From: a bacterium
GTDB taxonomy: Bacteria > Patescibacteriota > Minisyncoccia > Moranbacterales > UBA2206
Length of the DNA stretch: 64,000 bases
Assembly: GCA_043725085.1 (NCBI GenBank)
Contig: JAYSLY010000007.1
Coordinates: forward strand, 1,471 to 65,470
Direction: 5' to 3'
This document shows, in pieces, positions 7,770 to 62,796 of the stretch. The notes under the pieces were generated by a model, which made no database searches, was not told the DNA's origin, and worked only from the letters and a program-made list of their open reading frames with translations. The translations under genes were made by a program, and so were the position numbers. Positions within the stretch are counted from its first letter, which is position 1; each line of letters starts with the position of its first letter.

Positions 7770-7802
7770 ATCATTTCTCCTTTTTCAAAGTACCGTTTTT
7801 TT

Positions 7803-7834
7803 GTCTCCCCGAGAAACCGTTTTCTCAGCTTGAC
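7803..7834 (-). promoter_or_regulatory. conserved 32-nt leader/operator motif, copy 1
   Basis: Minus-strand reading: GTCAAGCTGAGAAAACGGTTTCTCGGGGAGAC. Contains the near-palindrome GAGAAAACGGTTTCTC. Identical to 8365-8396. Lies about 35 nt upstream of the ATG, followed by a shared cttt(g/a)aaaaaggagaa RBS region. Confidence 0.6.
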
Positions 7835-8331: not shown

Positions 8332-8364
8332 TTTCTATTCTCCTTTTTAAAGAACATTGTTTTC

Positions 8365-8396
8365 GTCTCCCCGAGAAACCGTTTTCTCAGCTTGAC
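8365..8396 (-). promoter_or_regulatory. conserved 32-nt leader/operator motif, copy 2
   Basis: Identical 32-mer to 7803-7834. Sits in the divergent region shared with the TrmB-like gene at 8533. Confidence 0.6.
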
Positions 8397-10577: not shown

Positions 10578-10598
10578 AAAAAACGCAAACTTTCGTAA

Positions 10599-10647
10599 GT
10601 CCTATCTGACCTATTTTGAGTTGCTTTGGCAGATGGCGAAAAAATAG
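10599..10647 (+). repeat. direct repeat DR2 (49 bp)
   Basis: gtcctatctgacctattttgagttgctttggcagatggcgaaaaaatag. One T/C mismatch versus DR1. Confidence 0.8.
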
Positions 10648-36665: not shown

Positions 36666-37826
36666 CTAATTCTTTATTGGCATAATAATATAGGTAAAAT
36701 CAGCCAAAACCTCTTTTGTGCCCTCAGAAAATTCGCGAATTGCCACTGGAGAGGAATCACTATTGGCCAGCAATGCTAATTTATTTGTCGTCACCACATT
36801 AATCCCGTCCACTAAATATTTCAAGTTAAAAACAATTTCTTGAGACTCACCTTGAACCTCAAAATTGATTTGTGTGGAGTTTTCACCCACCTCTGCACTC
36901 TTAGTGTCAACCAAGATATTTTTTCCTTCTGCGTCAATTTTTAAAACAACTTCGCTGGATTTATTATTCACAAAAACCCCGGCAATTTTTAGAGCATTTT
37001 GCAGGACTTTTCTATCCCCAATAATAGTTGTTTTATAACTCTCCGGCATAATGTGTTTATATTCCGGATATTTCCCATTAATAAGCCGTGAAACTATTTT
37101 TATTCCATCCAACTCAAAAAAAATCTGACCCTCTTCAATAAATACTTTCACCGTATTATCTTCTGAATTATTAGAAATAATGCGATTTAACTCAGAAAGT
37201 GTGCTGATTGGCACGATAATATTTTTAGTTTTTTCCCTAAACTCCAAATATTTTTCACTATTCACCTCATTTTCCCCTATTTTTAAAATATATTCAGAAA
37301 GTCTAAAACCATCTGTCGCCGCAAAAAATAACTCCTTTTCTCCAAAAACAATATTCATTCCGGTCAATTCTTGTCTTGCTTCATTATGCGCAACAGCAAT
37401 AAGAATTTTAGAGAAAATATCTTTCAACTTACTAATTCCAATATTTAGGATAAATTCAGTGTTTTTTTGTGGAATTAAAGGAAAATCTTCCGCAGAAAAA
37501 CCCTTAATCATCGCTTTTGTAGAGCCATTTTTTATCTTTAGGTTTTGATCTATTACCTCAATATCCATATTTTCCCCTTCAGTTAAATTAGCAGAGAAAC
37601 TACTTAAAAGCCTCGCAGGAATCGTAATTCTCCCCTCCTCTTCCACTTTCGCGCCAATTTTCACTTCAATTCCAATTTCCAAGTTTGTGGCAGATATTTT
37701 CAAATAACCCTTATTCGCTTCTAAGAGGATGTTGTTTAAAATTGGCAATGTATTTTGCTTAGAAACAATTCTTTCTGAATTGATAATCGCTTTTTTAAAG
37801 TTATCCTGAGTGCAAATTAATTTCAT
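36666..37826 (-). CDS. dnaN: DNA polymerase III beta sliding clamp
   Basis: MKLICTQDNFKKAIINSERIVSKQNTLPILNNILLEA. Confidence 0.9.
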   Translation of the reverse strand: MKLICTQDNFKKAIINSERIVSKQNTLPILNNILLEANKGYLKISATNLEIGIEVKIGAKVEEEGRITIPARLLSSFSANLTEGENMDIEVIDQNLKIKNGSTKAMIKGFSAEDFPLIPQKNTEFILNIGISKLKDIFSKILIAVAHNEARQELTGMNIVFGEKELFFAATDGFRLSEYILKIGENEVNSEKYLEFREKTKNIIVPISTLSELNRIISNNSEDNTVKVFIEEGQIFFELDGIKIVSRLINGKYPEYKHIMPESYKTTIIGDRKVLQNALKIAGVFVNNKSSEVVLKIDAEGKNILVDTKSAEVGENSTQINFEVQGESQEIVFNLKYLVDGINVVTTNKLALLANSDSSPVAIREFSEGTKEVLADFTYIIMPIKN

Positions 37827-38104
37827 AGTATTATTATTTTATTAATTAATTATAAAGAAACTTATTACTATTATTATAAATTAAACTTTTGTGGATAATT
37901 GAGATATAGAGCTAAGATGAGGGATAAATAGTGGAGATAATCTGTGGATAACCCTCATCTGAGTTGCTGGATAAACCATTAGTGTTATTGGGTTGGTGAG
38001 GAAAAGCTTTTGGCTTACTAAGATAATAAACAGGAAAAACTTATAATTAAGCAGGGTTTTTAGCCTCTTTACAACACCTTATCCACAACTTATACGCATT
38101 TAAC
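37827..38104. other. candidate oriC: an AT-rich unwinding region plus three perfect and several degenerate DnaA boxes between dnaA and dnaN
   Basis: TGTGGATAA at 37890-37898 and 37943-37951. TTATCCACA at 38079-38087. Degenerate TGGAGATAA and TGGATAAAC. AT tract 37827-37885. Confidence 0.6.
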
Positions 38105-39490
38105 CTAATCTATCTTATATAATTGTTCGCGAATCTGGCTAATTTCTTCTGATAATTTCTCATCGCTCATAAGACTTTTGGAAATTTTTTCAAAAGCATG
38201 GATGGCGGTGGTGTGATCGCGACCACCTAATTTCTCTCCTATTCCAGGGTAAGAAAATTGAAGCTCGCTGCGCATAAGGTACATAGCAACTTGTCGAGGC
38301 CGTACAACTTCTTTTTTGCGATTTTTTAGAACTAAATCCTCGAGGGTGATGTCATAGAATGAAGAAATAGCTTTTAATATTTGCTTGTACGTGATACCTT
38401 TCTTTTTTCCGCTGGAAATTAATTCAGAGAGTTGGTTTCTAGTAAAATCAAGCGTAATCTCCTTTTTAGTGAGTTGGGCTGAAACAATTAGTCGGTTAAG
38501 CGCACCTTCTAGTTCGCGAATATTGTTTTTGATGTTTGCGGCAATAAAATTAAGCGCTTCTTGGCTGATTTCCAGATTTTCATCGGCGACTTTCTTTTGG
38601 AGGATGGCAATTCTTGTTTCAAGATCGGGTTTAGAAACATCAGCAATCATCCCACCCTCAAAACGTGAGCGCAATCTTTCTTCAAGGATTTGGATTGCTT
38701 TTGGCGGGCGATCACTACTAAGCACGATTTGTTTATTGAGTTGATAGAGGTAGTTGAAAATATGGAAAAATTCTTCTTGGGTTTTTTCTTTGCCGGAAAT
38801 AAACTGGATATCATCGATAATTAGGATGTCAATTTTTTGATAGTATTCCTTAAATTCATTGATTTTTTGTTCCTGGAGGGAGTTGATTAGCTCCGTGGTA
38901 AACCTTTCTGAGGTGATGTATTTTACCTTGTAATTAGGATCTTTGCGCAAGATTTCATTGCCAATAGATTGGATTAGGTGGGTTTTCCCAAGACCAACTC
39001 CACCATAAATGAAGAGGGGGTTGTAGATTTTACCTAAATTTTGAGAAACAGCCACGCAGGCCGCATGAGCAAGCTCATTATTTCCACCAACAATGAAATT
39101 TTCAAAAACGTATTTGGGGTTAAGATTATTTTCGAGGTTTACTGTGAAAGTTTTCCTTTCTTGGTTTTTTGGATTATTATAATTTTGCGGGGCAACAATT
39201 GCGTCTACCATCGGCTCTCTCCTCAACGGCCTAAGTGGTTCTTTTGGCGTGGCAATCACACAAGAAACTGTTTTTATATTCGAATCAATGTTTTTAAGTG
39301 CTTTTAGGATATAGGCGTTGTATTTGTTTTCCAGCCATTCTTTAGCAAAGCCATTGGGCACACTAATAATAATAACCCCGTCAATATTAGAAATAATCTC
39401 GGTATTTTTAAACCAAGTGATAAAATTCGCCTTAGAAATGAAAAGCTCTATTTCACTGAGGGCTGTTTGCCAAAGTTCTTCGCTCTGCAT
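38105..39490 (-). CDS. dnaA: chromosomal replication initiator DnaA
   Basis: NPLFIYGGVGLGKTHLIQSIGNE plus a C-terminal HTH. Confidence 0.9.
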   Translation of the reverse strand: MQSEELWQTALSEIELFISKANFITWFKNTEIISNIDGVIIISVPNGFAKEWLENKYNAYILKALKNIDSNIKTVSCVIATPKEPLRPLRREPMVDAIVAPQNYNNPKNQERKTFTVNLENNLNPKYVFENFIVGGNNELAHAACVAVSQNLGKIYNPLFIYGGVGLGKTHLIQSIGNEILRKDPNYKVKYITSERFTTELINSLQEQKINEFKEYYQKIDILIIDDIQFISGKEKTQEEFFHIFNYLYQLNKQIVLSSDRPPKAIQILEERLRSRFEGGMIADVSKPDLETRIAILQKKVADENLEISQEALNFIAANIKNNIRELEGALNRLIVSAQLTKKEITLDFTRNQLSELISSGKKKGITYKQILKAISSFYDITLEDLVLKNRKKEVVRPRQVAMYLMRSELQFSYPGIGEKLGGRDHTTAIHAFEKISKSLMSDEKLSEEISQIREQLYKID

Positions 39491-50884: not shown

Positions 50885-53761
50885 TTAAAATTCATCGAAC
50901 GTTCTTTTTGGTAGCACGAAAAAAATGATTTTTATGGCGAGAATGATAGCGAGTCCGGAAAGGGCCATGCGGAAAAGAAAGGCGAAATAGCTGGGGATGC
51001 CGGAAGAAACAGTCGCAAGAACTTTTCCGGGTGAAGTTTCTTTTTGAGAAAGCGTTGTGTCATTGCTTACCATTTCAATTTCAATGTTATGCGTCAATTT
51101 CTTCTCATAGAATTCATTATAGGTGACATCCCAATATTTGTTAAGCATTTGGCGCATCGAGTTGGTGGGTGTGAAGGTGGTGGAGAGAGAGATGATATAT
51201 TTTTCACCAACATTTTTTGGCGGAAGGGTTAATCTTCCAAAGTGCGCCGTGTCAATCATGTATCCATAGTTCCTGGCATTGTCGGCGTTGATAGTTGTGC
51301 CATCAATATTCCATTGATAGGGACAATTTGATGATTGACCGGCAGTGTCATTGAAATTTTCTGTTCCAACTGTTCCGGAAAAGACAGGTGTTAGCACTAT
51401 ATTATTTCCCGTTCGTGCCTGAAAACTTGTGTCGCTGTGATCAGGATAGGACGTGTTGTTGAAATCTTTATATTCCCCCAAAACTAAACCGAGACAAGTT
51501 GGCTTGCCCGAAGTGTCCTGGTTATCCTTTCCTTCCGGCACAATTTTTACGTCCGGCGATGAGATTTTGAAAACTTTGCTTAGATCGATTCTTTTTCCGG
51601 TTGTTTTGTTGAGTGCGGACAGGCTGATATTATATTGATCACCAATGTTTTTTAGGACAGGAAAATAGATGGTAGTTCCTGTTTTGCCACTAGCATCAAA
51701 ACAGTCTTTGAAATGTTCGTCAGCGCAAGTCAATGGCGCTCCGTCAACTGTCCAAAGAAAATCAGTGTAGGTTGGGTTTGCTGCAGTTCCATTGTCAATT
51801 TTCATTCCAATCAGTTCATCTTTTGCTACTTCGCAGACTGCTGCTGGCACCGGGCTAGTTGTTATTGAGCCATCGGATTTTTTTTCCGGTATGTCTGCAA
51901 GGCATCTTTCATCACTGGTTCCGCTGGCGTTAATTTCTGCGGTAGGCGTTGCATCGGATTGATTGAGGTAGACAAGGCCTGCTGTATAAACCTTAATATA
52001 TTCTCCGGAGGAAGAAATTGGCGTGGTGATGTCGGCGTGACCTTCTCTTTCCGCTCCTCCTCCGGCGAGAGTTTCTTTTACAGTCACTTTTACTTTGAGA
52101 TATTTTTTCGGGCTTGGGAAATTTAAATTGAATTTAAGTGTATTAATCCCCAATCCGGAGGTTTGCGTGGATCCATCTAGGGCAGTTTTTGGAAGTGGAT
52201 TTCCCCAGTCGTCCGGATTTGCTTCATCGCTGGCATAAACTTCCCATGTGTAGCTGAGGTAGGCGGCGTTGTTGGCGTTAGGAACTGAAGCGGTGAGGCT
52301 GAGCGTATCACCGTTTTTACTGGAAGAGGTATCGTTGATTGGATTTTCCGGTAAATATTTGAGTGAAACGTCAAGTTTTTCTTTCGCGCCTCCTCCCTCG
52401 GTGGGTGTTACGAGATTTTCATAAAGACAATCATTCAAGTTATTAATATCAAAATTAGTCATTTTGATTGACTTGTATTCATCGGCTCCTGAGCAGCCGG
52501 TAGTGCCACTTTCCAGTTCGCTCGGAGAGCAGGTGTGGCTTGTGATTGTTTCATTCAGTTGAGTCTCGCTCAGTAATTGTGGGTCTGTACCGACATAGGT
52601 CACGACAGTGTGGATGGTGGTAGTTGTTCTGATTGTGGCATTGTCATTAACTTGGTTTGTGTTAGGAGCAATATCCTCAACTGTTTTTGTGGAAATGGTT
52701 GTGGTGTAGTCTGTGGCGGCGGGAGGCGGAACGCTTGTGCTTCCGGAAATTGCTTTTGTGTTTGGGTAGGTCGTGGTGGTGTCTTCGGTTGTTTTTGGAT
52801 AATCGGAATTACCTGTGCCTGCTTTGATATTATTTTTGTCGCCACATGTATTTTTAGTGAATGCCCACATAGTTTCATAGGATGAGTCAGATATTTGGGT
52901 TGGTTGAATTGAAACGCCTTCTACGGCAACGCCGACCTGATCTCCTGCCGAATAGGAAAAGGAAAAAACATTTTCACCTAAGCCAACAATATTGGCTTCA
53001 TCGGGATGGCCTGTTCCGGCCGTGTCTTTATTTTTTGGATTAGTGTGCCAAAATTTTTCCTCGTTAGCGTCAAATTCATTATCACCGGTTGTATGTCCGG
53101 GAGCGTTGGGGAAAAGATGGTGGCACGCTATTTCATTGTCATCGCCACTTTTAACATCATGCACGAAGCAGTGTTCTTTTTTACCTCGTTGGTCATCTCC
53201 GCCAAAAGGGGCACTGTATCCATCATTGTCAGTGTCACTGGAGTAATCGGCGTTTTGCCAGTCGAAATCATTACTAGCCAGTATTCGCATAGCTTTCATT
53301 TTGTAGTCTTCGATATCAACCTCACCGTCTCCATTGAGATCACAGGCCTTAAAATCATCACTTTTTTTGTAGTCAGAAGTGTATTTGTCGTGGTCTAGTT
53401 TGTCATCAAAGCATCTGGCGCTTTTGATATACCACGTGAAATAGAGGTTTTCCGGCATATTCATGAAGTAGGATGGCGTGGTGGTGACAGTCACTTTTTC
53501 CCCCGGCACTGGGTCGACCGGATCAAAGGTGAGTGAAACAGTGGGGGGCGTGACTTTTTTTCTGGCAACATTGACTGATTTCATCGTGTTTTGTATCTCG
53601 TCTTTGTTGACACCAAAAGCGCCCATGACGGTGTCCATAAGCGCCATTGGATTACCCAAGGCAACGCCCAATAGATCGGCGTGAGCCGGCGCGGCGGTCA
53701 GTGAAAAAATATTGATGATAACCAAAAAAGTGATTATGGCTTTTTTAATTCTTGTTTTCAT
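50885..53761 (-). CDS. large (~958 aa) surface protein with a signal peptide, acidic Ca-binding-like repeats and a C-terminal TM anchor
   Basis: Start at the ATG giving MKTRIKKAIITFLVIINIFSLTAAPAHA. DLNGDGEVDIEDY and DTDNDGYSAPFGGDD repeats. C-terminal LSGLAIILAIKIIFFVL. The ORF-track start at 53899 is an upstream extension. Confidence 0.5.
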   Translation of the reverse strand: MKTRIKKAIITFLVIINIFSLTAAPAHADLLGVALGNPMALMDTVMGAFGVNKDEIQNTMKSVNVARKKVTPPTVSLTFDPVDPVPGEKVTVTTTPSYFMNMPENLYFTWYIKSARCFDDKLDHDKYTSDYKKSDDFKACDLNGDGEVDIEDYKMKAMRILASNDFDWQNADYSSDTDNDGYSAPFGGDDQRGKKEHCFVHDVKSGDDNEIACHHLFPNAPGHTTGDNEFDANEEKFWHTNPKNKDTAGTGHPDEANIVGLGENVFSFSYSAGDQVGVAVEGVSIQPTQISDSSYETMWAFTKNTCGDKNNIKAGTGNSDYPKTTEDTTTTYPNTKAISGSTSVPPPAATDYTTTISTKTVEDIAPNTNQVNDNATIRTTTTIHTVVTYVGTDPQLLSETQLNETITSHTCSPSELESGTTGCSGADEYKSIKMTNFDINNLNDCLYENLVTPTEGGGAKEKLDVSLKYLPENPINDTSSSKNGDTLSLTASVPNANNAAYLSYTWEVYASDEANPDDWGNPLPKTALDGSTQTSGLGINTLKFNLNFPSPKKYLKVKVTVKETLAGGGAEREGHADITTPISSSGEYIKVYTAGLVYLNQSDATPTAEINASGTSDERCLADIPEKKSDGSITTSPVPAAVCEVAKDELIGMKIDNGTAANPTYTDFLWTVDGAPLTCADEHFKDCFDASGKTGTTIYFPVLKNIGDQYNISLSALNKTTGKRIDLSKVFKISSPDVKIVPEGKDNQDTSGKPTCLGLVLGEYKDFNNTSYPDHSDTSFQARTGNNIVLTPVFSGTVGTENFNDTAGQSSNCPYQWNIDGTTINADNARNYGYMIDTAHFGRLTLPPKNVGEKYIISLSTTFTPTNSMRQMLNKYWDVTYNEFYEKKLTHNIEIEMVSNDTTLSQKETSPGKVLATVSSGIPSYFAFLFRMALSGLAIILAIKIIFFVLPKRTFDEF

Positions 53762-54420
53762 TTCGTAAGATAAATAATATACGCGTCTAGGAATATTATA
53801 ACAAAAATACTCATAAAATACGAATAGAAAAATGATTTTGTTTTGTAGGCAAGAAATCCTGCGGTGACTGAGAGTAGGACAAGTGAGGCTGATTGCCAAG
53901 AAAGGGCTTTAGTAAAAAAAAGTAGCGTGAAAAATAGAATTGCTTGCACAGCAATTGCCCAATGTTTGAATTTTTTTTGCAAAACAGAAAGGAGAAAGCC
54001 TTGGAAGAAAAAACTGGAAGCAAAAACTGTGAAATTGACGATTAATAATTCATAGGCTAAAAATAGCCAAAAATTGTTTTTTATGTAATCTGATAATGTG
54101 TAGTTAGCCTTAAATTGGGTGTAATTTAGCATTAAATACAGTAAAAAAAGTGTAAAAAGTGCGGTGATTGCTCCCCAAGCCAGAGAAGTTATTGGATTTT
54201 TCAGATTGCAGCCAAAATCGGCGAGATCTTTTTTCAGAATAATTTTTACATAAGCAATCGGGAGAAGAATGAGAAAAAATAAGTTTTTTGTGATAGTTTG
54301 TACGGAGTTTTGGGTGGGAAAAACAGCGCTGGAGAAAAGACAAATGAGCGCCAGACCAAAACCGACCAGCAGTTCTTGGTTATCTTTCAAAAAATTTCGT
54401 GGTGTTTTTTGGCGGTACAT
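53758..54420 (-). CDS. polytopic membrane protein, possibly a CPBP/Abi-family-like intramembrane protease with degenerate motifs
   Basis: Six to seven TM helices. YELLIVN...FQGFLL and FKHWAIAVQ. Confidence 0.3.
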   Translation of the reverse strand: MYRQKTPRNFLKDNQELLVGFGLALICLFSSAVFPTQNSVQTITKNLFFLILLPIAYVKIILKKDLADFGCNLKNPITSLAWGAITALFTLFLLYLMLNYTQFKANYTLSDYIKNNFWLFLAYELLIVNFTVFASSFFFQGFLLSVLQKKFKHWAIAVQAILFFTLLFFTKALSWQSASLVLLSVTAGFLAYKTKSFFYSYFMSIFVIIFLDAYIIYLTK

Positions 54421-54436
54421 ATAAGTTAATGCTGCG

Positions 54437-55006
54437 CTAGTCTTGGTAGGCGTAGGCAGCTGTCATTCGGGCGGCTTCTCTTTGTTCTTCTGCGGCGGCT
54501 TCTCTTCTGTTTTTTAGGATTAAAATAAAAATAACAAATGTCGTGATTGTTTCCAGGGGAAGAAAGTCTATGATAGGCAGCATTTCAAGAACGGTGCCGG
54601 CAATGAGAACTTTCCATTTATCAGGAGTAAAAATACTTTTTATCATGGATCTTTTCTTGCTTTGGCGCAACCCGGCACCGCAAAGAAGCATAGCCGCCCA
54701 GGTAATAATTCCGGCCATAAAGGCTGTAACTACGCCAAGAAGCTGTAGGCCAGGAACGGCATTTGCGACAAAATCGACAATGTCTTTCAGGAGAGAGCTC
54801 ATTATGGCAATGGCAAAAAAGAAATCTGTGAGCTGGATAAATTTTCTAAGATGTTCGGTGTCGGTAACTTCGGCTTCTCTGGCGATTTCATTGGCTAGTT
54901 TTCCTAGACTCTTTTTTTGCTTATTAACTTCAAGCTCTCTCTTTTTTTCTGCATCAGCCGCTCTTTGCGCCTCTAGGCGTTGTTGGTTTTCTTCTTCTTT
55001 TGACAT
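54437..55006 (-). CDS. membrane protein with a charged coiled-coil N-terminus (possible T4SS accessory component)
   Basis: N-terminal EENQQRLEAQRAADAEKKRELE, then three TM helices. Confidence 0.35.
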   Translation of the reverse strand: MSKEEENQQRLEAQRAADAEKKRELEVNKQKKSLGKLANEIAREAEVTDTEHLRKFIQLTDFFFAIAIMSSLLKDIVDFVANAVPGLQLLGVVTAFMAGIITWAAMLLCGAGLRQSKKRSMIKSIFTPDKWKVLIAGTVLEMLPIIDFLPLETITTFVIFILILKNRREAAAEEQREAARMTAAYAYQD

Positions 55007-55009
55007 ATC

Positions 55010-55045
55010 GCATAATTTGAAATTTCAAATTTCAAATTTAAAATT
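55010..55045. repeat. AT-rich palindromic repeat (copy B)
   Basis: aatttgaaatttcaaatttcaaatttaaaatt immediately upstream of the ATG at 55006. Confidence 0.45.
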
Positions 55046-55052
55046 ATGGAGC

Positions 55053-56897
55053 TTATTCTTCCTCGCTAAATTCCTTCTTTGCCCTTTCGATGTCTAGCAG
55101 TTGCGACGGGTCGGTAGTGATGATTTGATCTTCAGAATAGGACGCAACGACTTTGATGGCGACGTGATTTGTGCCGGCAAAAAAGATGCCCTCTCCCACG
55201 TTGCTTTCGAGGAGCAAGAATTTTTCTTGATCAGTGAGATAGAATGTGTCAGAAATCACATCAATTCCGGCCGGCGATTGCTTGAGCAGGAGCTGCAAAG
55301 ACGAGTTGGTCACAATCGCTTTGCCATAGCGAGAAGAAAGAAAGTCGTTCACATCTTGTGTGATGGTGGTGAGTCCGGTGAAATATTTTCGGCAGCGCTT
55401 GGCGATACCAAAAAGGAAAGAAGCGGCGTCTTCATATTTCATCATTACCCAAGCTTCATCAACCAAAACTAGGCGCTTTTTCATGTTGGTGCGCATTTCA
55501 TTCCAGATAAATTGCAAGATGGTGTACATAGCAACCGGACGCAATTCCTCTTCCATATCGCGGATATTAAACACCACCAGCTGATTATCAACTTTAATGT
55601 TAGTGGCGTGATTGAGAAATCCGGCGAAAATTCCTTCGGTGTATTTTTCCAGGCGAACAGCCAAAACCTCTCCGCCGTCCAGGCTGCGCAAGACTTGATA
55701 GAGGTCGGACATTGTTGGGAAAGAATCTTTGCTTAAAGCATTTAAATCCGCTTCCGCAGTGATGTCTCTAATTGAATAAGTTTCGTGGATTGCTCGATCC
55801 AAAACAGAATCTTCTTCCGGAGTGATTGATCCGAGCATGATGTGGAGTAGTCCCAGGAGATTGGCAATGTTATTGCGCAAAATATCTTCCGGGTCATCAT
55901 CTTCTCCGACATGCGGCAGGTCAAAAGGATTGAGATGGTTGGTCGAATTGAGGGAAATCTTGATGAAAGTTCCTTCAACAGTGTCGCAGAGGTGACGGTA
56001 TTCATTTTCCGGGTCGATAATGATGACATCAGTGCCTACCATCATCGAACGCAAAACTTCCAACTTGACGGTATAACTTTTTCCCGCTCCAGACTTGGCA
56101 AAAACTACCATGTTAGCATTTTCCATTCCAAAACGGTCGAAAATAATCAAGCTGTTATTGTGGCGGTTAATGCCATAGAGGATTCCTGTATTAGATGAAA
56201 GAGTGGAAGAGACAAAAGGAAAGGTGGTGGAAAGCGGTGAGCTATTCATGTTTGTTCCCACGTCTAACTCGTCGTTGGCAAGGGGTAACGATGAGTTGAA
56301 GCCTTGTTCTGATTTGAAAACAGCCGGTTTGACATAGACTAATTGGGCTTCCAAAATAGCCTCAATGCTTTTTATGTTTTTCGTAACCGCTTCTTCGCTA
56401 TCGCCATAGGCGGTGATGTAGAGGGAAAAACGAAAAAATTTTTCTGTGCCTTGTTGCAGCTTATCTCTGAGTTCATCAATATCTTGTTGAGCGGTTTCCA
56501 GAGCGGGGTCTCTGATGAGGCCTTTGGTTTGTTCGATTTGAATCTGTGATTCAACTTGAGTGGCGCTTTTTTTCAAAGTTTTCAAAATATCATAGGTATC
56601 GACCGGATGAATAAACATGGAGATGTCAATCGGCATATCGATATTTATAATGGGAGAAAACCAATTACTGTGCAAATAGCGCGGATAGGCGATGATGAAG
56701 ATGGTTTGCGCAATCGTTTCTCCGATGCGAATCGATTTCGGCATAATTCTGATTGCGGCGGGAGCGATGATGTCGTTGAGCTTGGCCAGCCCTTCTTGAT
56801 AATATTTTTCCGATTCCAAAACCTCGTCTTGCGGTTTTGCGACTTTTTTTGCGGGAGCGGTTAGGCCCTCATCTTTTTTAGCGAATAAATTTAGCAT
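55053..56897 (-). CDS. virB4: VirB4/TraE-family type IV secretion ATPase (ATPase portion)
   Basis: AYPRYLHSNWFSPIINIDMPID. Walker A VVFAKSGAGKSYTV. Walker B region LVLVDEAW. Confidence 0.8.
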   Translation of the reverse strand: MLNLFAKKDEGLTAPAKKVAKPQDEVLESEKYYQEGLAKLNDIIAPAAIRIMPKSIRIGETIAQTIFIIAYPRYLHSNWFSPIINIDMPIDISMFIHPVDTYDILKTLKKSATQVESQIQIEQTKGLIRDPALETAQQDIDELRDKLQQGTEKFFRFSLYITAYGDSEEAVTKNIKSIEAILEAQLVYVKPAVFKSEQGFNSSLPLANDELDVGTNMNSSPLSTTFPFVSSTLSSNTGILYGINRHNNSLIIFDRFGMENANMVVFAKSGAGKSYTVKLEVLRSMMVGTDVIIIDPENEYRHLCDTVEGTFIKISLNSTNHLNPFDLPHVGEDDDPEDILRNNIANLLGLLHIMLGSITPEEDSVLDRAIHETYSIRDITAEADLNALSKDSFPTMSDLYQVLRSLDGGEVLAVRLEKYTEGIFAGFLNHATNIKVDNQLVVFNIRDMEEELRPVAMYTILQFIWNEMRTNMKKRLVLVDEAWVMMKYEDAASFLFGIAKRCRKYFTGLTTITQDVNDFLSSRYGKAIVTNSSLQLLLKQSPAGIDVISDTFYLTDQEKFLLLESNVGEGIFFAGTNHVAIKVVASYSEDQIITTDPSQLLDIERAKKEFSEEE

Positions 56898-56899
56898 GT

Positions 56900-56972
56900 A
56901 ATTGTGAATTTGAAATTTGAAGTTTTAAATTTAAAATGAAATCGAAATTACTAAATTTTAAATTGAAAATTT
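56900..56972. repeat. AT-rich palindromic repeat (copy C) forming the 75-nt gap that splits VirB4
   Basis: gaatttgaaatttgaagttttaaatttaaaatgaaatcgaaattactaaattttaaattgaaaatt. Confidence 0.45.
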
Positions 56973-57659
56973 TCATTTGAGTTCCATCTTCTCCGTATCG
57001 ATATAGCCTTTAGTGTCGAAGATGGTCGGATTGTAGGCATTAAACAGCAGTTCAATCAGCTCGGGGGTTTTCAGGGGAATGATTTTGACGCCAATGCCGG
57101 AAAGTCCGGCGGTGAGGTGATCGACTCTTTGATAAAGTTGGCTTTTGTATGTTTCAAATGTTTCTCTTTTTTCCAGGATGCTTCTTTTGGGATTCAGCAT
57201 GTTGGAAAGATTGCTCAGAAAACTTCTGTCTTGATTTTCCATGGGAGAAAATGGCACGACTATGTAGAAAGTTTTGTCCATAATGTCAGACATGGAGACC
57301 AATTGGGTGATAAAATTTTTATATTCTGAAATTTGCAAACGCATCAGTTCAGTTTTTTGTTGTTTTTCTTTGGTAGTTAGAAAATCAATATAGGTGTCGA
57401 TGTTCAATTTCCGTGAGCTAATAAGAACTTGCATCGGAAAGTCAACTGAGTTGAGGAAATTTTGATATTGGCTGATGATAGCTTCTTGTTCATCGGTGGC
57501 CTTGAGTTCAAAATTGATCGCGGAAACAGCTAAAACTGCCCTCATCGAGCCGTTTTTAAGCACAATCACATCTTCTTTGACTTCTGCCACATCAAGATAT
57601 TGCTGGGTCGGCGAAGCGGCGGATTGTTTGGCGAGCTTTTGAGAATATAGTTTTTCCAT
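56973..57659 (-). CDS. VirB4 N-terminal domain (CagE/TrbE/VirB family) encoded as a separate ORF
   Basis: QYLDVAEVKEDVIVLKNGSMRAVLAVSAINFELKATDEQEAIISQYQNFLNSV aligns with the canonical VirB4 N-terminus (IVLLEDGSIMSIARIDGVAFELEEIEMRNARCRAFNTLMRNI). Confidence 0.6.
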   Translation of the reverse strand: MEKLYSQKLAKQSAASPTQQYLDVAEVKEDVIVLKNGSMRAVLAVSAINFELKATDEQEAIISQYQNFLNSVDFPMQVLISSRKLNIDTYIDFLTTKEKQQKTELMRLQISEYKNFITQLVSMSDIMDKTFYIVVPFSPMENQDRSFLSNLSNMLNPKRSILEKRETFETYKSQLYQRVDHLTAGLSGIGVKIIPLKTPELIELLFNAYNPTIFDTKGYIDTEKMELK

Positions 57660-57665
57660 TGATTT

Positions 57666-58067
57666 TTATTTTTTCCTTATGTCTAATAATTGCGAAATAT
57701 CAGCGACTTTTTGAGCGTCAAATTTCTTTTTTGTAACGACTGAAGCCGCATTTTCTTTTTTGTCGATGGTGGTTTTTTGAATTTTTTCCGTGACGCGGCG
57801 CCAGATATACATTTTTGGACGAGTAGCAAAAAGGACTGAGGAAAGAATGAATTTAATCAGCGGTTGGTTGTAGGGGCGATAAAAGGCCAATGCTCCAAAA
57901 ATGACGGCGATGATAATGGCGGAAAGAATGAAAGCGGATTGGTCGAGTGTTCCATAGCAAATCAAAAGCACAACTCCTCCGGCGGCTAACCAGCCAAGTT
58001 GTCTGGCGGTCAGCGGACCGACGATTTTGTCTTCAATATCGATAAATTGGGGGACGTTGAAAATCAT
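57666..58067 (-). CDS. PrgI-family (VirB3-like) small membrane protein
   Basis: NVPQFIDIEDKIVGPLTARQLGWLAAGGVV followed by two TM helices. Confidence 0.55.
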   Translation of the reverse strand: MIFNVPQFIDIEDKIVGPLTARQLGWLAAGGVVLLICYGTLDQSAFILSAIIIAVIFGALAFYRPYNQPLIKFILSSVLFATRPKMYIWRRVTEKIQKTTIDKKENAASVVTKKKFDAQKVADISQLLDIRKK

Positions 58068-58069
58068 GA

Positions 58070-58128
58070 ATTTGAAATTTAAAATTAGAAATTTGAAATG
58101 AAATTTTAATTTCTAAATTTAAAACTGT
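58070..58128. repeat. AT-rich palindromic repeat (copy D)
   Basis: gaatttgaaatttaaaattagaaatttgaaatgaaattttaatttctaaatttaaaa. Confidence 0.45.
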
Positions 58129-58130
58129 GT

Positions 58131-58505
58131 CTATTGGGTTTCTTTGTTTTCTTTCAGTGTCAGGGCTATTTTTGAAAATATCAATGTTAGTTCTTGTGCT
58201 TCTTTCCAGAGTTTTCTGCCTTCTTCTTTGTGTTCAGGATTGGATTTTGCAAGGAGTTCTAGCCAATATTTTGTTTCTTTGCACTCCTTTTTGCAGATAT
58301 AGATCTTATTGTGGAAATCCTTTTTTGAGCTTGCTCCGTTAGCTTCGCAGTAATTCGCGCCTATGCTGGTCGCAGAACGAACCAGTTGGCTCATCAGTGG
58401 AGTGTTTGTGATGTCTCTGCTTAATTTTTTAATAAAAACAATTACCTCTTCACTAAACTTCAGAGTTCTGGACTCTAAATCATACTTTTCCGAATTTTTT
58501 GTCAT
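58131..58505 (-). CDS. four-helix-bundle protein (TIGR02436-type, formerly '23S rRNA intervening-sequence protein')
   Basis: SATSIGANYCEANGASSKKDFHNKIYICKKECKETKYWLELL. Confidence 0.6.
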   Translation of the reverse strand: MTKNSEKYDLESRTLKFSEEVIVFIKKLSRDITNTPLMSQLVRSATSIGANYCEANGASSKKDFHNKIYICKKECKETKYWLELLAKSNPEHKEEGRKLWKEAQELTLIFSKIALTLKENKETQ

Positions 58506-58507
58506 TT

Positions 58508-58545
58508 AATAATTTAAATTTTGATATTGATTTAAAATTTCAAAT
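58508..58545. repeat. AT-rich palindromic repeat (copy E)
   Basis: aatttaaattttgatattgatttaaaatttcaaatttaaaatt. Confidence 0.4.
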
Positions 58546-59718
58546 TTAAAATTGGTCATTGTTCTTTAAGTCTACCACATTTTTTGGCATTGGTCTTGGG
58601 GTGGAATAATTAATTCTGGCAATTGGCGTGGGAGCGGGATAATTTTTTTGAAGCGGCTTTGGAATTTCCGGTGATTTTTCCGTGGAGAATGTTTGGGGTG
58701 ATGAAAATTTAATATTCTCTGCCGTGTTTCCATTTCTCAAGGCTTCTTTTTGGGGCAAATCTCTTCTCCAGGCGGCAATTCTTTCCTCGTCAGTTTGAAA
58801 TCTTTGCTGGCCTCCCGAAATGGTTTGTCTTGTTGGGTAGTTTCCTTGGCCTCTTTGGATTTCTGCCGGCTCGAAATTATTGCGAGTGGCACCTGGATTC
58901 ATTGTTGGTCTTTGCGGAATTTCTCTTTTTTCCGGTGCGGCAAAAACAACTTGCTTGGTGTTACCGTTGATTGAGATTGGTGTTTTTTCTTCAAATGATT
59001 TGAGAATGGCAGTTAGTTTTTCGCGGTCTTGACTGGAAAGCGGTCGGCCATTTTCACTTTTGAAAAGATAGTTTCCGCGTACAATCGGATCATGATTGCT
59101 GATGCCAACGGTGAAAGTGTAGTCAGAAAGCCAGTTTTTGATTGACGGACGCACCGGTTCGGGGAAAACCTTGAGTTTGATGTGATTTGAAGTGATGAGC
59201 TGCTCGCCTAGTTCAGGATATTTTTCTAAGGCAAGTTCGATTGGCATATTTTCCAATTGAGATTGCTGTTTTCTTATTATTTCATCTTCTGCTCTTTTTT
59301 CTTTTATTTTCTCTCTTTCTTCTTCTAAAATCCATGGCTCTAGCTCTAAAACTTTTTTCCAGGCCTCGCTTTCGGAAATCAGTGGGTTGGATTTCTTGTT
59401 GGACCATTCTTCCAGTAAGCTTAGTGAATCTTTGAAAAAATCAGGAAAACGGGCAAAAATTCGTTGGTTTATTTCATAGGCAATGCCAAAAATAACCTGT
59501 TCTGGTTGTTTTAGATCCTTGGCGATTATCGCAGGGTAATCCTTTAGTTTTAATTCGCCGATAAAAATGAGTGCGATTGGGTAGGATAATGTTTTTATTA
59601 CTTCTTCGCTTAATCCATAGATAAAACAGGTCTTTTCAATTTCATATCGTGGCGCATCAGATATAATAAATTCTCTCAGTGTATTTGGTAATTTATTTCT
59701 TTTTTCTAAATAGCTCAT
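58546..59718 (-). CDS. hypothetical protein with a Pro/Gln-rich C-terminal tail (390 aa)
   Basis: Long ORF with no recognised domain. Embedded in the T4SS-like cluster. Confidence 0.45.
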   Translation of the reverse strand: MSYLEKRNKLPNTLREFIISDAPRYEIEKTCFIYGLSEEVIKTLSYPIALIFIGELKLKDYPAIIAKDLKQPEQVIFGIAYEINQRIFARFPDFFKDSLSLLEEWSNKKSNPLISESEAWKKVLELEPWILEEEREKIKEKRAEDEIIRKQQSQLENMPIELALEKYPELGEQLITSNHIKLKVFPEPVRPSIKNWLSDYTFTVGISNHDPIVRGNYLFKSENGRPLSSQDREKLTAILKSFEEKTPISINGNTKQVVFAAPEKREIPQRPTMNPGATRNNFEPAEIQRGQGNYPTRQTISGGQQRFQTDEERIAAWRRDLPQKEALRNGNTAENIKFSSPQTFSTEKSPEIPKPLQKNYPAPTPIARINYSTPRPMPKNVVDLKNNDQF

Positions 59719-59732
59719 AACAAAGGGTGCTT

Positions 59733-61658
59733 TTAATTGTGAATATGCATTAGATCATGGTCTCTGCCTGCTAGGCGAGAAATATTTTGTGCTGTTGGAC
59801 TATTTTGTTGCGTGTTTTGCATTTGATGATTTAACTCTCTTTGTGCGGCTTCATCATCCATGTTTAAGACAATATTTTTGTATCTGTTCGTTCTTATGTT
59901 ATTGGCAATATCATCAGCGTAGTTTGTTATTGTGTTTGTGCTCATTCTTTTTGCCGTATCCTTGTCTAAGCGACTTATTATTTGTGTTCTCGAATCTTGG
60001 TCACCAGTTATTGATCCGTGGAATCCGCCAATTTGGGCAAAATGGGCCATTTGGACATTTCTATTTATTCTAAGTTGTTCAGGAGAGAGATTTGGATCAG
60101 CTGCATTAAGATTGGCAAAATTTCCAGCAATAGCTGCTAGAGAGGCGTCAATATTGTTTCCATGTGCAACGCTTTTGCCTCTAAGATCTTCAAGATCTTT
60201 GTTTGAAATAGCTTGTTCTTGAAAGGCCATTTGCATAAAATTTGTGTTTCCTAGTGTGTTGGCACTGAGTTTTTTTGCGTCGAATTGGTTACTCCTCATA
60301 TGACTTTGCATCATTTCTTGCCAGCGCGCAGGGTCTGTTATGTGAGAAAAAGCCGCAACTGGATCGTAGGTCTTGACTTTATTGACTAATTGCATAAACA
60401 CCTGGCTAGTTTCTCCAAAAGCAGCTCTAACGTTATTTAAATCATTTTGTGTGGTCGCTCCAAGCTCAGCTAAGCGCTGAATGGCAGCTGCTCTTTCGTA
60501 TTGCGTTCCATTTGCTGCGATTCTTCTTAAATCAGCCTCAGAAGTATTATCAATATTAAGTCTTTCTTTTGTCTCCTTGATTCTTTTTAGTTGAGTCTGG
60601 TCAATGACATTTGGCACTGCGAATGGACCACTTCCGGCAATACGAGCTTCTCTTTCAGCTTGTCTGTCTGATCCAAGCAGTCCACTTTTTTTCCAATTAG
60701 TCCATTTTTGCTGGATTCCTCCTGGTACGCCAGTTTTTTTAGCGGCCCACCAAGCAGTCCTATGCGGTGCATTTCCAACCCACTTCATCATCTTTGTTCC
60801 CTGCCCCACTACCATACTGGCTCCGGCGATGCCGGAGCTTTGGGCTCTTTCGATGCCGATCCAAAGGATAACCAGCGGGAGAACAAAAAAAGAAATGGAT
60901 GAAACTGAGCTGCTCAAGGTGCCTCCATCGGCGGATAGTTTCAGGCCACCGGCGGAATCGGCTACGGCTATCATCATGCGATTAGCCAAAACCAGCATAA
61001 AAATCATAATCGGTCCGGCAAAACAATATTTCATAAATTCTTTCCACCAGCCACTGGCGGCGTTTGCCAGGTCTGTGCCGGGTAGAGTTGAGCCCAAAAA
61101 AGCAATCGGAGAGAAGATGATGAAAATAGTCAGGGCGATTGTTCTAATCACCAAAAGAACGGCAATTGTGAGCATGGTGATGGCAAACATGAAGGTGAAG
61201 ATAACAGCGGCGAGGAGAAAATAGGAGTCTGCTGTTTTCCCTTCGGCTCCATTGATTATGCCAAGTATGCCACTTTTTTCAACAATATTCCAAAATGAGC
61301 CATCTCCGCCAAGTTGATTGAGAAAGCCATACATGAAAATGTTGGACATGTCGATGATGAAACGGGCAATGGGGTAACTGAAATTGACCAAAAGAGCCAT
61401 AATAATCAGATTGATCAAGACCTTTTTATAGTTATAGTTCGTGCTGGCTTGAAAAATTGTGGCAAAAGCGGAAAACAGCAAAATCATGATAAGAGTTGTG
61501 TTGAAAAAATCACGCACAAAACGCCACATCGTGTAGACGGTCGGGTTGTCCATGACAGCGGTCATGTGTGATGGCACGATAATCCATTTGAAAAGGTTAT
61601 CGGCTGAGTAAAGTAGCGCACCGTCAAGTTTTAGAATAAGTCGAAGTATGTCGTCCAT
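59733..61658 (-). CDS. VirB6/TrbL-like polytopic T4SS membrane protein with a C-terminal soluble domain
   Basis: Six to seven TM helices in the N-terminal 400 aa, then a hydrophilic ~250-aa tail. Confidence 0.5.
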   Translation of the reverse strand: MDDILRLILKLDGALLYSADNLFKWIIVPSHMTAVMDNPTVYTMWRFVRDFFNTTLIMILLFSAFATIFQASTNYNYKKVLINLIIMALLVNFSYPIARFIIDMSNIFMYGFLNQLGGDGSFWNIVEKSGILGIINGAEGKTADSYFLLAAVIFTFMFAITMLTIAVLLVIRTIALTIFIIFSPIAFLGSTLPGTDLANAASGWWKEFMKYCFAGPIMIFMLVLANRMMIAVADSAGGLKLSADGGTLSSSVSSISFFVLPLVILWIGIERAQSSGIAGASMVVGQGTKMMKWVGNAPHRTAWWAAKKTGVPGGIQQKWTNWKKSGLLGSDRQAEREARIAGSGPFAVPNVIDQTQLKRIKETKERLNIDNTSEADLRRIAANGTQYERAAAIQRLAELGATTQNDLNNVRAAFGETSQVFMQLVNKVKTYDPVAAFSHITDPARWQEMMQSHMRSNQFDAKKLSANTLGNTNFMQMAFQEQAISNKDLEDLRGKSVAHGNNIDASLAAIAGNFANLNAADPNLSPEQLRINRNVQMAHFAQIGGFHGSITGDQDSRTQIISRLDKDTAKRMSTNTITNYADDIANNIRTNRYKNIVLNMDDEAAQRELNHQMQNTQQNSPTAQNISRLAGRDHDLMHIHN

Positions 61659-62707: not shown

Positions 62708-62715
62708 GTTTTTTG

Positions 62716-62796
62716 TAGAGGCGAGGCATTGCCTCGACTAGAAAATAATGAACAAGGTGTAAACCAACGATACCTAGACGAGGCACTGCCTCGTCT
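62716..62796. promoter_or_regulatory. two near-identical GC-rich palindromes (CGAGGCAyTGCCTCG cores) about 52 bp apart in the intergenic region
   Basis: gtagaggcgaggcattgcctcgactag (62715-62741) and tagacgaggcactgcctcgtcta (62775-62797). Confidence 0.5.

What the first reader, a model, noticed from the sequence alone, without database searches (positions are those of the whole stretch)
55053..57659. VirB4 split into a separate N-terminal-domain ORF and an ATPase ORF, separated by a 75-nt AT-rich palindromic repeat
ORF 56973-57659 carries the canonical VirB4 N-terminal block (IVLKNGSMRAVLAVSAINFELKATDEQEAIISQYQNFLNSV). ORF 55053-56897 carries the Walker A/B ATPase portion.

The two are separated by the 75-nt gap 56898-56972. 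That gap consists of aatttgaaattt-type repeats and contains no obvious strong SD.

VirB4 is normally a single polypeptide of about 800 aa; these two ORFs sum to 842 aa.

Possible explanations are a genuine two-subunit VirB4, a repeat-element insertion that split the gene, or a sequencing/assembly artefact.
Basis: partly seen in the sequence, partly recalled or inferred. Interest (0 to 1): 0.6.

Follow-up and report, generated by a model that had tools for sequence, protein, structure and literature searches.

The report
Conserved two-gene VirB4 secretion ATPase
The type IV secretion ATPase VirB4 really is encoded here as two adjacent genes, but this split (a TrsD-like protein plus a VirB4 core) is an ancient, conserved and already published feature of Patescibacteria and pGO1-type Gram-positive systems, and the AT-rich repeat between the genes arrived later.

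Summary
ORF 56973-57659 (228 aa) and ORF 55053-56897 (614 aa) lie on the minus strand, separated by a 75-nt, 85% A+T spacer built from AAATTTS heptamers.

The two products tile a full-length VirB4 without loss. The break falls inside the N-terminal domain, not at the border with the ATPase domain.

It is neither an artefact nor a recent disruption:
- All 74 informative species-level genomes keep both ORFs adjacent and separate.
- Both ORFs are under strong purifying selection (dN/dS 0.02-0.06).
- The break sits at the same position as in TrsD/TrsE of Staphylococcus plasmid pGO1.

The spacer is secondary. In relatives it ranges from a 1-nt overlap (TAATG) to 496 nt. The window's copy is a truncated member of a small AT-rich element family that also fills three other junctions of this operon.

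The missing Shine-Dalgarno says nothing, since only 4 of 55 genes here have one.

Quinonero-Coronel et al. 2025 already reported TrsD next to virB4 as the commonest T4SS component in Patescibacteria, often near dnaA, as here. Verdict: real, functional, already known, low interest. Only the spacer element family remains unexplained.

The parts
57666..58067 (-). prgI / VirB3-like small membrane protein (133 aa), first gene of the prgI-trsD-virB4 triplet
   Evidence: Pfam PrgI PF12666, E 4e-12, 46.9 bits against a cutoff of 27. The same gene sits directly upstream of the 228-aa ORF in relatives. It parallels trsC in pGO1.
56973..57659 (-). trsD-like gene: stand-alone first half of the VirB4 N-terminal domain (228 aa)
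   Evidence: NCBIfam places residues 19-137 on CD1110 VirB4 profile positions 2-121, and also hits TrsD/TraD at E 6e-7. Residues 15-220 align to 5-218 of the fused 797-aa relative P0383. The AlphaFold2 model has pLDDT 84.8, and the top 14 Foldseek PDB hits are all R388 TrwK/VirB4. Precomputed Pfam PF26593 TraC-like is recorded for the identical protein. dN/dS is 0.03-0.06.
56898..56972 (.). 75-nt AT-rich spacer. It is a truncated copy of a roughly 65-nt AAATTTS-rich element (element copy 56900-56965), with no significant secondary structure in this genome.
   Evidence: It is 80% identical over 66 nt to 58062-58127, with nhmmer E 2.5e-11. Orthologous gaps in the closest relatives are 18-206 nt, and the window lacks about 46 nt of the left arm present in L005. 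Fold z is -0.34 here against -4.74 in L004/L005. No Rfam match. There are four in-frame stops.
55053..56897 (-). virB4 core gene (614 aa): a variable tail of about 35 aa, the second half of the N-terminal domain (about 36-230) and the RecA-like ATPase domain (about 231-594)
   Evidence: NCBIfam CD1110 VirB4, 377 bits, residues 31-581 on profile 179-734/752. PDB 4ag5 VirB4 C-terminal domain matches residues 231-594, E 1.5e-51. Residues 36-601 align to 226-789 of fused P0383. It is collinear with pGO1 TrsE from residue 21/9. dN/dS is 0.02-0.03.
55007..55052 (.). AT-rich spacer downstream of virB4, holding the longest heptamer run (55013-55047)
58068..58130 (.). Paralogous copy of the AT-rich element, directly upstream of prgI
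   Evidence: Direct repeat D5 with the trsD-virB4 gap. nhmmer E 5e-11. Forms a modest hairpin, z = -2.3.
58506..58545 (.). AT-rich spacer with a heptamer run, an inverted partner of 58083-58123 across the small PF05635 gene
   Evidence: Inverted repeat I1.

Best explanation
These are two real, separately translated genes that together encode the VirB4 ATPase of the chromosomal Patescibacteria (Candidatus Moranbacteria) type IV secretion system.

The gene order is prgI/virB3-like, then trsD-like, then virB4 core. The 228-aa TrsD-like protein is the detached first half of the VirB4 N-terminal domain. The 614-aa protein is the second half of that domain plus the ATPase domain.

The fission is ancient. 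It is shared, at the same break point, with TrsD/TrsE of the pGO1 subclass of monoderm (MPF-FATA) conjugation systems, from which the Patescibacteria system is thought to derive.

Inferred, not shown: the two polypeptides reassemble non-covalently into a VirB4-like unit that docks on PrgI/VirB3 at the membrane.

The 75-nt AT-rich spacer is a later, lineage-specific occupant of a junction that already existed. It uncouples translation of the two cistrons, which overlap as TAATG in sister lineages. It probably serves simply as an unstructured AU-rich leader in a genome that almost never uses Shine-Dalgarno sequences.
For: Tiling:
- The two ORFs cover CD1110 VirB4 profile positions 2-121 and 179-734.
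- They cover residues 5-218 and 226-789 of a fused 797-aa relative.

Fold: the top 14 PDB matches of the N-ORF model are all TrwK/VirB4.

Conservation:
- The 120 best homologues of each half are all stand-alone, at 224-244 aa and 587-628 aa.
- 149 of the 150 best 50%-identity cluster representatives are short, and 2,165 representatives match at E <= 1e-3.
- A relative is encoded in 563 of the 588 stretches matched in the species-genome collection. In 74 of 74 informative loci the ATPase ORF follows directly as a separate ORF.
- dN/dS is 0.03-0.06 for the N-ORF and 0.02-0.03 for the ATPase ORF.

Same break as pGO1:
- pGO1 carries trsC (135 aa), trsD (227 aa) and trsE (672 aa) in that order.
- TrsE aligns collinearly with the ATPase ORF from residue 9/21, E 4e-48.
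- The N-ORF family profile aligns to TrsD over 179 columns, E 1.6e-5.
- Firmicutes plasmids show the same pair.

Spacer is secondary:
- Gaps range from -1 to 496 nt across species and 18-206 nt among the closest relatives.
- The window's spacer is a paralogue of the spacer upstream of prgI.

Shine-Dalgarno: only 4 of 55 genes have one.

Literature: TrsD next to virB4 in 1,664 Patescibacteria cases, essential in Ca. Southlakia epibionticum ML1, with the T4SS near dnaA (PMC12102498). Here dnaA lies 15.6 kb away.
Against: - No direct evidence that the two proteins bind each other. No complex prediction or experiment was possible.
- Scores of the N-ORF on curated models are far below their cutoffs: TrsD 29.5 bits against 200, TraC_F_IV 15.4 bits against 28.1.
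- The hhalign probability to pGO1 TrsD is only 79%.
- Foldseek TM-scores to TrwK are moderate, 0.34-0.54 normalised to the query.
- The paper notes that in Gracilibacteria TrsD homologues are not next to virB4. TrsD could therefore have a role that is not strictly that of a VirB4 piece.
- The role proposed for the spacer is inference only.
Confidence: 0.88

Rival explanations
1. A small AT-rich repeat element (MITE-like) inserted into a once-continuous virB4 gene and split it, leaving two fragments, one or both on the way to becoming pseudogenes.
For: The spacer is a copy of a dispersed element also found upstream of prgI. Five of the seven heptamer runs in the window crowd into 55013-58555. 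Spacer length varies greatly between close relatives.
Against: Sister species have the same two ORFs with a 1-nt overlap (TAATG) or gaps of 1-4 nt and no element. The break point is the same in pGO1 and in Firmicutes plasmids. Both ORFs have dN/dS of 0.06 or less and no frameshifts across 74 species. The start codon and first residues of the ATPase ORF (MLNL/MLNP) are conserved next to the variable spacer.
Confidence: 0.02
2. A sequencing or assembly error (indel or chimeric join in a low-complexity AT-rich stretch) created an apparent split in a single gene.
For: AT-rich low-complexity repeats are error-prone in assembly. A single fused 797-aa version exists in one MAG.
Against: The same two-ORF layout appears in 74 independent species-level assemblies from many projects. 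The gap carries four in-frame stops and no coding potential. No single indel could fuse the ORFs. Orthologous gaps in four other species share the architecture. Reads were not available to check.
Confidence: 0.01
3. The two ORFs are joined at the protein level by stop-codon readthrough or recoding, because they happen to be in the same reading frame (the gap is 25 codons).
For: The 75-nt gap is a multiple of three, so the ORFs are in frame. Some Patescibacteria lineages reassign UGA.
Against: The in-frame path crosses TGA and then three TAA codons. Gaps in relatives are 121, 108, 61, 25, 18, -1 nt and so on, mostly not multiples of three. The other genes in the window read normally under table 11.
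Confidence: 0.01
4. The TrsD-like protein is homologous to the VirB4 N-terminus but has taken on an independent job, such as an adaptor, assembly factor or regulator of the T4SS, instead of being a constitutive piece of the ATPase. The variable spacers would tune its ratio to VirB4.
For: [quoted passage not shown] Spacers from -1 to 496 nt imply that coupling is not required. The N-ORF evolves about twice as fast as the ATPase ORF: 55-91% against 66-95% identity, with higher dN/dS. Many family members carry C-terminal extensions, reaching 300-440 aa.
Against: The VirB4 core lacks exactly the segment that TrsD supplies, and the two tile a fused relative with only a 7-residue junction. Adjacency held in 74 of 74 informative loci.
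Confidence: 0.08

Closest known systems
TrsD + TrsE (TraD + TraE) of Staphylococcus aureus pGO1/pSK41, the pGO1 subclass of MPF-FATA conjugation systems
   Same: The gene order is the same: VirB3-like (trsC 135 aa / prgI 133 aa), then a small protein (TrsD 227 aa / 228 aa here), then an N-terminally shortened VirB4 (TrsE 672 aa / 614 aa here). The ATPases align collinearly from their first residues. The N-ORF family profile aligns to TrsD over 179 columns.
   Different: Sequence identity is low: about 20% for TrsD and 26% for TrsE. The N-ORF scores far below the NCBIfam TrsD cutoff. pGO1 is a conjugative plasmid with a relaxase and a coupling protein, while this locus is chromosomal, lies next to the replication origin, and none of the ORFs I scanned matched a relaxase or coupling protein.
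Patescibacteria T4SS as described by Quinonero-Coronel et al. 2025 (Microb Genom 11:001409; PMC12102498) and Wang et al. 2023 (Ca. Southlakia epibionticum)
   Same: The components VirB4, TrsD and PrgI/VirB3 are clustered. TrsD is associated with virB4 in 1,664 of 2,272 cases. The cluster lies near dnaA. The TrsD homologue is listed as essential in strain ML1. This window shows the same layout, with dnaA 15.6 kb away.
   Different: Nothing substantive differs; this is one more instance. The paper calls TrsD a remote homologue of the VirB4 N-terminus with no assigned function. In the text I searched it does not state that TrsD plus VirB4 tile a complete VirB4 or that the break lies within the N-terminal domain.
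Canonical single-chain VirB4 (R388 TrwK, Agrobacterium VirB4, CD1110 of CTn2, PrgJ of pCF10)
   Same: The total length is about the same (842 aa against about 750-820), as are the domain order and Walker motifs. The ATPase domain is homologous to PDB 4ag5, and the N-ORF model matches TrwK.
   Different: Here there are two polypeptides instead of one, with the break around profile position 122-178 of 752.
VirB3-VirB4 fusions (for example in Campylobacter and Helicobacter CagE-type systems)
   Same: They show that the VirB3 / VirB4 N-terminus / VirB4 core module tolerates rearrangement of its covalent links. This point rests on the literature cited in PMC12102498.
   Different: That is the opposite event, a fusion instead of a fission. 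No such fusions occur in Patescibacteria.

Membership tests
VirB4-like conjugal transfer ATPase, CD1110 family (NCBIfam NF045971) | Whole-protein HMM score above the curated cutoff (325 bits) | tested here: met
   The 614-aa ORF scores 377.2 bits, E 1.6e-112.
VirB4-like conjugal transfer ATPase, CD1110 family (NCBIfam NF045971) | One polypeptide covering the full profile, N-terminal domain plus ATPase | tested here: not met
   The 614-aa ORF covers profile positions 179-734 of 752 only. Positions 2-121 are matched by the separate 228-aa ORF.
VirB4-like conjugal transfer ATPase, CD1110 family (NCBIfam NF045971) | Intact Walker A and Walker B motifs and a RecA-like C-terminal domain | tested here: met
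   GAGKS and VLVDEAW are present in the translation. PDB 4ag5 VirB4 C-terminal domain matches residues 231-594, E 1.5e-51. Pfam P-loop_TraG scores 102.5 bits.
TrsD/TraD family conjugative transfer protein (NCBIfam NF041427) | HMM score above the curated cutoff (200 bits) | tested here: not met
   29.5 bits, E 5.8e-7, residues 27-173 on profile 24-181/201. This makes it a remote homologue, not a member by NCBI's cutoff.
TrsD/TraD family conjugative transfer protein (NCBIfam NF041427) | Stand-alone protein of about 200-230 aa encoded between a VirB3-like gene and an N-terminally shortened VirB4 | tested here: met
   Window order is prgI (133 aa), 228 aa, 614 aa. pGO1 order is trsC (135 aa), trsD (227 aa), trsE (672 aa).
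TrsD/TraD family conjugative transfer protein (NCBIfam NF041427) | Detectable homology to pGO1 TrsD itself | tested here: inconclusive
   hhalign of the 42-sequence family profile against pGO1 TrsD gives probability 79%, E 1.6e-5, 179 aligned columns and 20% identity. The result is supportive but not strong.
Pfam PF26593 TraC-like | Match to the Pfam model | tested here: inconclusive
   A precomputed PF26593 hit is recorded for the identical protein P0001 and for all 120 listed homologues. My own hmmscan of the local Pfam copy returned only TraC_F_IV at E 0.0099, so I could not reproduce the hit.
Patescibacteria T4SS (Quinonero-Coronel et al. 2025) | VirB4, TrsD and PrgI/VirB3 homologues clustered on the chromosome | tested here: met
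   The same triplet appears in relatives.
Patescibacteria T4SS (Quinonero-Coronel et al. 2025) | Location near the replication origin (dnaA) | tested here: met
   dnaA is at 38105-39490 and dnaN at 36666-37826. The GC-skew sign changes near 38 kb. virB4 ends 15.6 kb from dnaA.
Patescibacteria T4SS (Quinonero-Coronel et al. 2025) | VirB6-like polytopic membrane protein and VirB2-like pilins in the cluster; no relaxase | tested here: inconclusive
   The 641-aa ORF 59733-61658 and the other neighbours gave no Pfam or NCBIfam hit. No relaxase or coupling protein was seen among the ORFs scanned, but not every ORF in the window was scanned.

The most novel reading that the evidence does not exclude
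The AAATTTS-rich, roughly 65-120-nt quasi-palindromic spacers that occupy several junctions of this T4SS operon are a functional cis-element family. They lie upstream of prgI, between trsD and virB4, downstream of virB4, and on both sides of the small PF05635 gene.

Possible roles are RNA hairpins or processing sites, or protein-binding sites, that set the relative output of TrsD, VirB4 and PrgI. On this reading they are not inert or selfish filler.

Points in favour:
- Copies at two orthologous positions persist between this genome and L005, although synonymous sites are saturated (dS above 1.3).
- The roughly 25 nt before the virB4 ATG are nearly invariant in five species.
- The long versions fold much better than shuffles, with z between -2.5 and -4.7.
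Probability: 0.2. Interest if true: 0.35.

Novelty: already known. Interest (0 to 1): 0.18.

Why it matters
It matters little as a discovery. The TrsD/VirB4 pairing is published for Patescibacteria and goes back to pGO1.

The analysis has three modest uses:
- It states explicitly, with a fused relative as a ruler, that TrsD plus the shortened VirB4 add up to one complete VirB4, broken in the middle of the N-terminal domain. This gives the 'function unknown' TrsD a concrete structural hypothesis: it supplies the VirB3- and membrane-proximal half of the VirB4 N-terminal domain. That system is essential for the epibiotic lifestyle.
- It shows that annotation pipelines should not flag such pairs as pseudogenes or frameshifts.
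- It shows that the junction tolerates anything from a 1-nt overlap to about 500 nt of inserted repeats, so translational coupling of the two halves is not required.

Tried and rejected
- The search for related loci with the 42-sequence alignment A1 failed because no stretch was conserved enough. It worked with the closer 13-sequence alignment A2.
- I tried a mixed alignment of the fused relative P0383 with N-half and C-half homologues as input for a structure prediction of the whole unit. MAFFT misplaced the N-half fragments, giving 15-20% identity instead of about 36%, so I did not run the prediction.
- A sequence search of the N-ORF against PDB gave only chance hits to UCH-L3, E about 0.3. 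The link to VirB4 needed the fold search.
- Rfam found no family in 54300-58700, even at E <= 1.
- The promoter scan found no sense-strand sigma-70-like site in the gap. It found only antisense TTGAAA-N16-TAAAAT matches that follow trivially from the repeat. I draw no conclusion from them.
- I considered a diversity-generating retroelement, because the neighbouring PF05635 gene belongs to the family I recall (from memory, not checked here) as including the DGR accessory protein Avd. The window has no template/variable repeat pair of the expected kind. I did not scan for a reverse transcriptase.
- I considered readthrough of the in-frame gap and rejected it.
- nhmmer with the 65-nt element found copies only in the window, L005 and L033. 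The exact element is therefore confined to close relatives, although AAATTT-rich gaps recur more widely.
Full report
**1. The observation**

On the minus strand the window carries ORF 56973-57659 (228 aa, ATG) and ORF 55053-56897 (614 aa, ATG). They are separated by exactly 75 nt, 56898-56972. The spacer is 85% A+T and is built from runs of the heptamer AAATTTS, at 56906-56933 and 56953-56973. Such runs are rare by chance: the window has seven, against 0-1 in 20 shuffles. A 15-nt version of the motif gives 27 matches against 8.5 expected.

There is no Shine-Dalgarno before the 614-aa ORF. That is the rule in this genome, where only 4 of 55 genes have a 5-mer SD, so its absence says nothing.

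'Palindromic' is true only in the trivial sense that AAATTT is self-complementary. The spacer transcript folds no better than shuffled sequence (z = -0.34).

**2. What the two ORFs are**

The 614-aa product passes the curated cutoff of the NCBIfam VirB4-like CD1110 family (377 bits against 325). It covers only profile positions 179-734 of 752. It carries Walker A and B motifs. Residues 231-594 match the crystallised C-terminal ATPase domain of Thermoanaerobacter VirB4, PDB 4ag5, at E 1.5e-51. Residues 107-207 still match the end of the Pfam N-terminal-domain models TraC_F_IV and CagE_TrbE_VirB.

The 228-aa product matches the beginning of VirB4 profiles:
- CD1110 positions 2-121
- the Mycoplasma VirB4 model, positions 94-233
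- TIGR00929, positions 11-147
- the TrsD/TraD family model, at E 6e-7

An AlphaFold2 model built on a 42-sequence alignment is confident (mean pLDDT 84.8). Its 14 best PDB matches are all chains of R388 TrwK/VirB4 (E 3e-4 to 6e-3), and the next hit is at E 0.25.

A rare fused relative serves as a ruler. This is P0383, 797 aa, encoded beside prgI and dnaA in a Patescibacteria MAG. The 228-aa ORF aligns to its residues 5-218 and the 614-aa ORF to residues 226-789.

The two ORFs therefore tile a complete VirB4 with nothing lost. The break lies in the middle of the N-terminal domain, not at the border between that domain and the ATPase domain.

**3. Real and conserved, not an artefact or a recent disruption**

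- The 120 best database homologues of each half are all stand-alone, at 224-244 aa and 587-628 aa. They come from Candidatus Moranbacteria and other Patescibacteria MAGs of many projects.
- In an exhaustive search of 1.8 billion cluster representatives, 2,165 match the small ORF. Of the best 150, 149 are short and one is fused.
- In the species-representative genome collection, 563 of 588 matched stretches encode a relative of the small ORF.
- Of the 80 loci fetched, all 74 in which the downstream region was informative have the ATPase ORF directly after the small ORF, as a separate ORF.
- Against seven relatives, dN/dS is 0.03-0.06 for the small ORF and 0.02-0.03 for the ATPase ORF. Synonymous sites are saturated, so these ratios are approximate but clearly far below 1.

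**4. The spacer is secondary**

Across those species the distance between the two ORFs ranges from -1 nt to 496 nt. The -1 cases are overlapping TAATG junctions, for example in L013-L015 and L068. Many gaps are only 1-4 nt.

Among the closest relatives (86-91% identity in the small protein) the gap is 18, 25, 61, 108, 108, 121 and 206 nt. The 108-121-nt versions fold into long AU-rich hairpins (L004/L005: -29.7 kcal/mol, z = -4.74; L007 and L009: z about -2.5). The window's 75 nt lack about 46 nt of the left arm and do not fold.

Within the window, 66 nt of the spacer are 80% identical to the spacer upstream of prgI, 58062-58127. Related heptamer runs fill the gap after virB4 (55013-47) and the gap at 58535-55. 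Five of the seven runs in the window lie within 55013-58555.

So a small AT-rich element family has colonised junctions of this operon that already existed. It did not split the gene.

The two ORFs happen to be in the same frame, but the path between them crosses TGA and three TAA codons. Gap lengths in relatives are mostly not multiples of three, so readthrough is excluded.

**5. How it most likely works**

Shown:
- two separately initiated cistrons
- strict adjacency to a PrgI/VirB3-like gene
- strong purifying selection on both
- complementarity of the two products to one VirB4

Inferred: the TrsD-like protein and the VirB4 core reassemble non-covalently. The TrsD-like part would supply the VirB3- and membrane-proximal portion of the N-terminal domain. 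In R388 (from my own knowledge of the 7O41/8RTB structures) that portion is where VirB4 engages VirB3 and the inner-membrane complex.

Because the spacer can be anything from an overlap to 496 nt, translational coupling is not essential. In this genome the AU-rich, unstructured 75 nt probably act simply as the leader for SD-independent initiation. The last roughly 25 nt before the ATG (TTCAAATTTC.AATT.A) are nearly invariant in five species, despite saturated synonymous divergence. This is consistent with a constrained initiation region but does not prove one.

**6. Comparison with what is known**

Staphylococcus plasmid pGO1 has trsC (VirB3-like, 135 aa), trsD (227 aa) and trsE (VirB4, 672 aa) in the same order. 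TrsE aligns collinearly with the 614-aa ORF from its first residues (residue 9 against 21, E 4e-48). The small-ORF family profile aligns to TrsD over 179 columns (E 1.6e-5, probability 79%). Firmicutes megaplasmids show the same pair, for example Pontibacillus (274 aa plus a 621-aa CD1110-family VirB4) and Planococcus (annotated TrsD plus a DUF87 protein).

Quinonero-Coronel et al. 2025 (PMC12102498) report the following:
- 1,664 of 2,272 homologues are associated with virB4.
- The homologue in Ca. Southlakia epibionticum ML1 is listed as essential.
- The T4SS often lies near dnaA.

This window fits in every respect. dnaA (38105-39490) and dnaN lie 15.6 kb from virB4, and the GC skew changes sign there.

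By curated cutoffs the small ORF is not a member of NCBIfam's TrsD subfamily (29.5 bits against 200). It is best described as a remote TrsD homologue of the Pfam PF26593 'TraC-like' family. That Pfam hit is precomputed, and I could not reproduce it with the local library.

**7. Verdict**

The feature is a genuine, ancient two-gene VirB4, but it is already described, so the finding is ordinary.

Two things go slightly beyond the published description:
- the explicit tiling, with the break placed in the middle of the N-terminal domain
- the demonstration that the junction is a hotspot for lineage-specific AT-rich and GC-rich intergenic elements

The function, if any, of the AAATTTS element family remains open.

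Noticed in passing
window 58131-58505 (-), flanks 58083-58123 and 58513-58553: A 124-aa PF05635 '23S rRNA intervening-sequence protein' (four-helix-bundle) gene sits inside the T4SS operon, between the 390-aa ORF and prgI. Inverted copies of the AT-rich element bracket it (41 nt, 76% complementary). It is present in the 91%-identity relative L004 and absent in the 68% relative L001, which suggests a cassette-like insertion.
   Followed up: partly
window 36666-39490 and the whole window: dnaN (36666-37826) and dnaA (38105-39490) are present, and the GC skew changes sign near 38 kb, so the replication origin lies in the window. Most genes on both flanks (3-36 kb on the + strand, 47-64 kb on the - strand) point towards the origin. 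That is head-on to replication, which is unusual.
   Followed up: no
whole window: Only 4 of 55 confident genes have a 5-mer Shine-Dalgarno within 20 nt of the start, so most leaders are simply A/T-rich.
   Followed up: yes
window 7756-7834 and 8318-8396: A 79-nt direct repeat (78% identity) covers the starts and upstream regions of two adjacent small minus-strand ORFs, 7422-7769 and 7939-8331. These are two of the few genes with a strong AAGGAG SD. The shared part includes TCTCCCCGAGAAACCGTTTTCTCAGCTTGAC.
   Followed up: no
window 62708-62796; L001 6688-6865; L004 3796-3908 and 7282-7530: GC-rich perfect palindromes occur in T4SS-operon gaps. The window has AGACGAGGCAGTGCCTCGTCT and GAGGCAATGCCTC. 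Relatives have GCCTGCCTGCCGGCAGGCAGG-type hairpins, including one inside the trsD-virB4 gap of L001. This is a second, REP-like intergenic repeat family in the clade.
   Followed up: no
L087 544-2937 (MAG GCA_964615945.1, contig CAZTUR010000004.1): This is the only fused TrsD-VirB4 (797 aa) among the 150 best cluster representatives. It lies beside prgI and 2.4 kb from dnaA. It could be a secondary re-fusion or a 1-nt assembly error at an overlapping junction.
   Followed up: partly
window 55017-55044, 56910-56937, 58057-58085 (+ strand): Three copies of the AT-rich element each give an antisense sigma-70-like match (TTGAAA, 16-17 nt, TAAAAT; 10 of 12 positions). This probably follows from the repeat sequence itself, but antisense transcription into virB4, trsD and prgI is not excluded.
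   Followed up: no
window 22053-22386 and 23394-23727: There is an internal duplication of about 335 nt (72% identity, spacing 1341 nt) inside the 1006-aa ORF 21161-24181, presumably a repeated protein domain.
   Followed up: no
window 9199-9267 and 10579-10647: A 69-nt direct repeat (86% identity) ends in the same ...GGCAGATGGCGAAAAAATAG. One copy is the 3' end of ORF 8533-9267. The other lies just after ORF 10005-10577, suggesting a duplicated or displaced gene end.
   Followed up: no
window 50885-53899 and 53758-54420: The mechanically listed 1004-aa ORF (TTG start) overlaps the upstream Rce1-like gene by 142 nt. Its real start is probably the internal ATG at MKTRIKK, about 45 codons in, which removes the overlap.
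   Followed up: no
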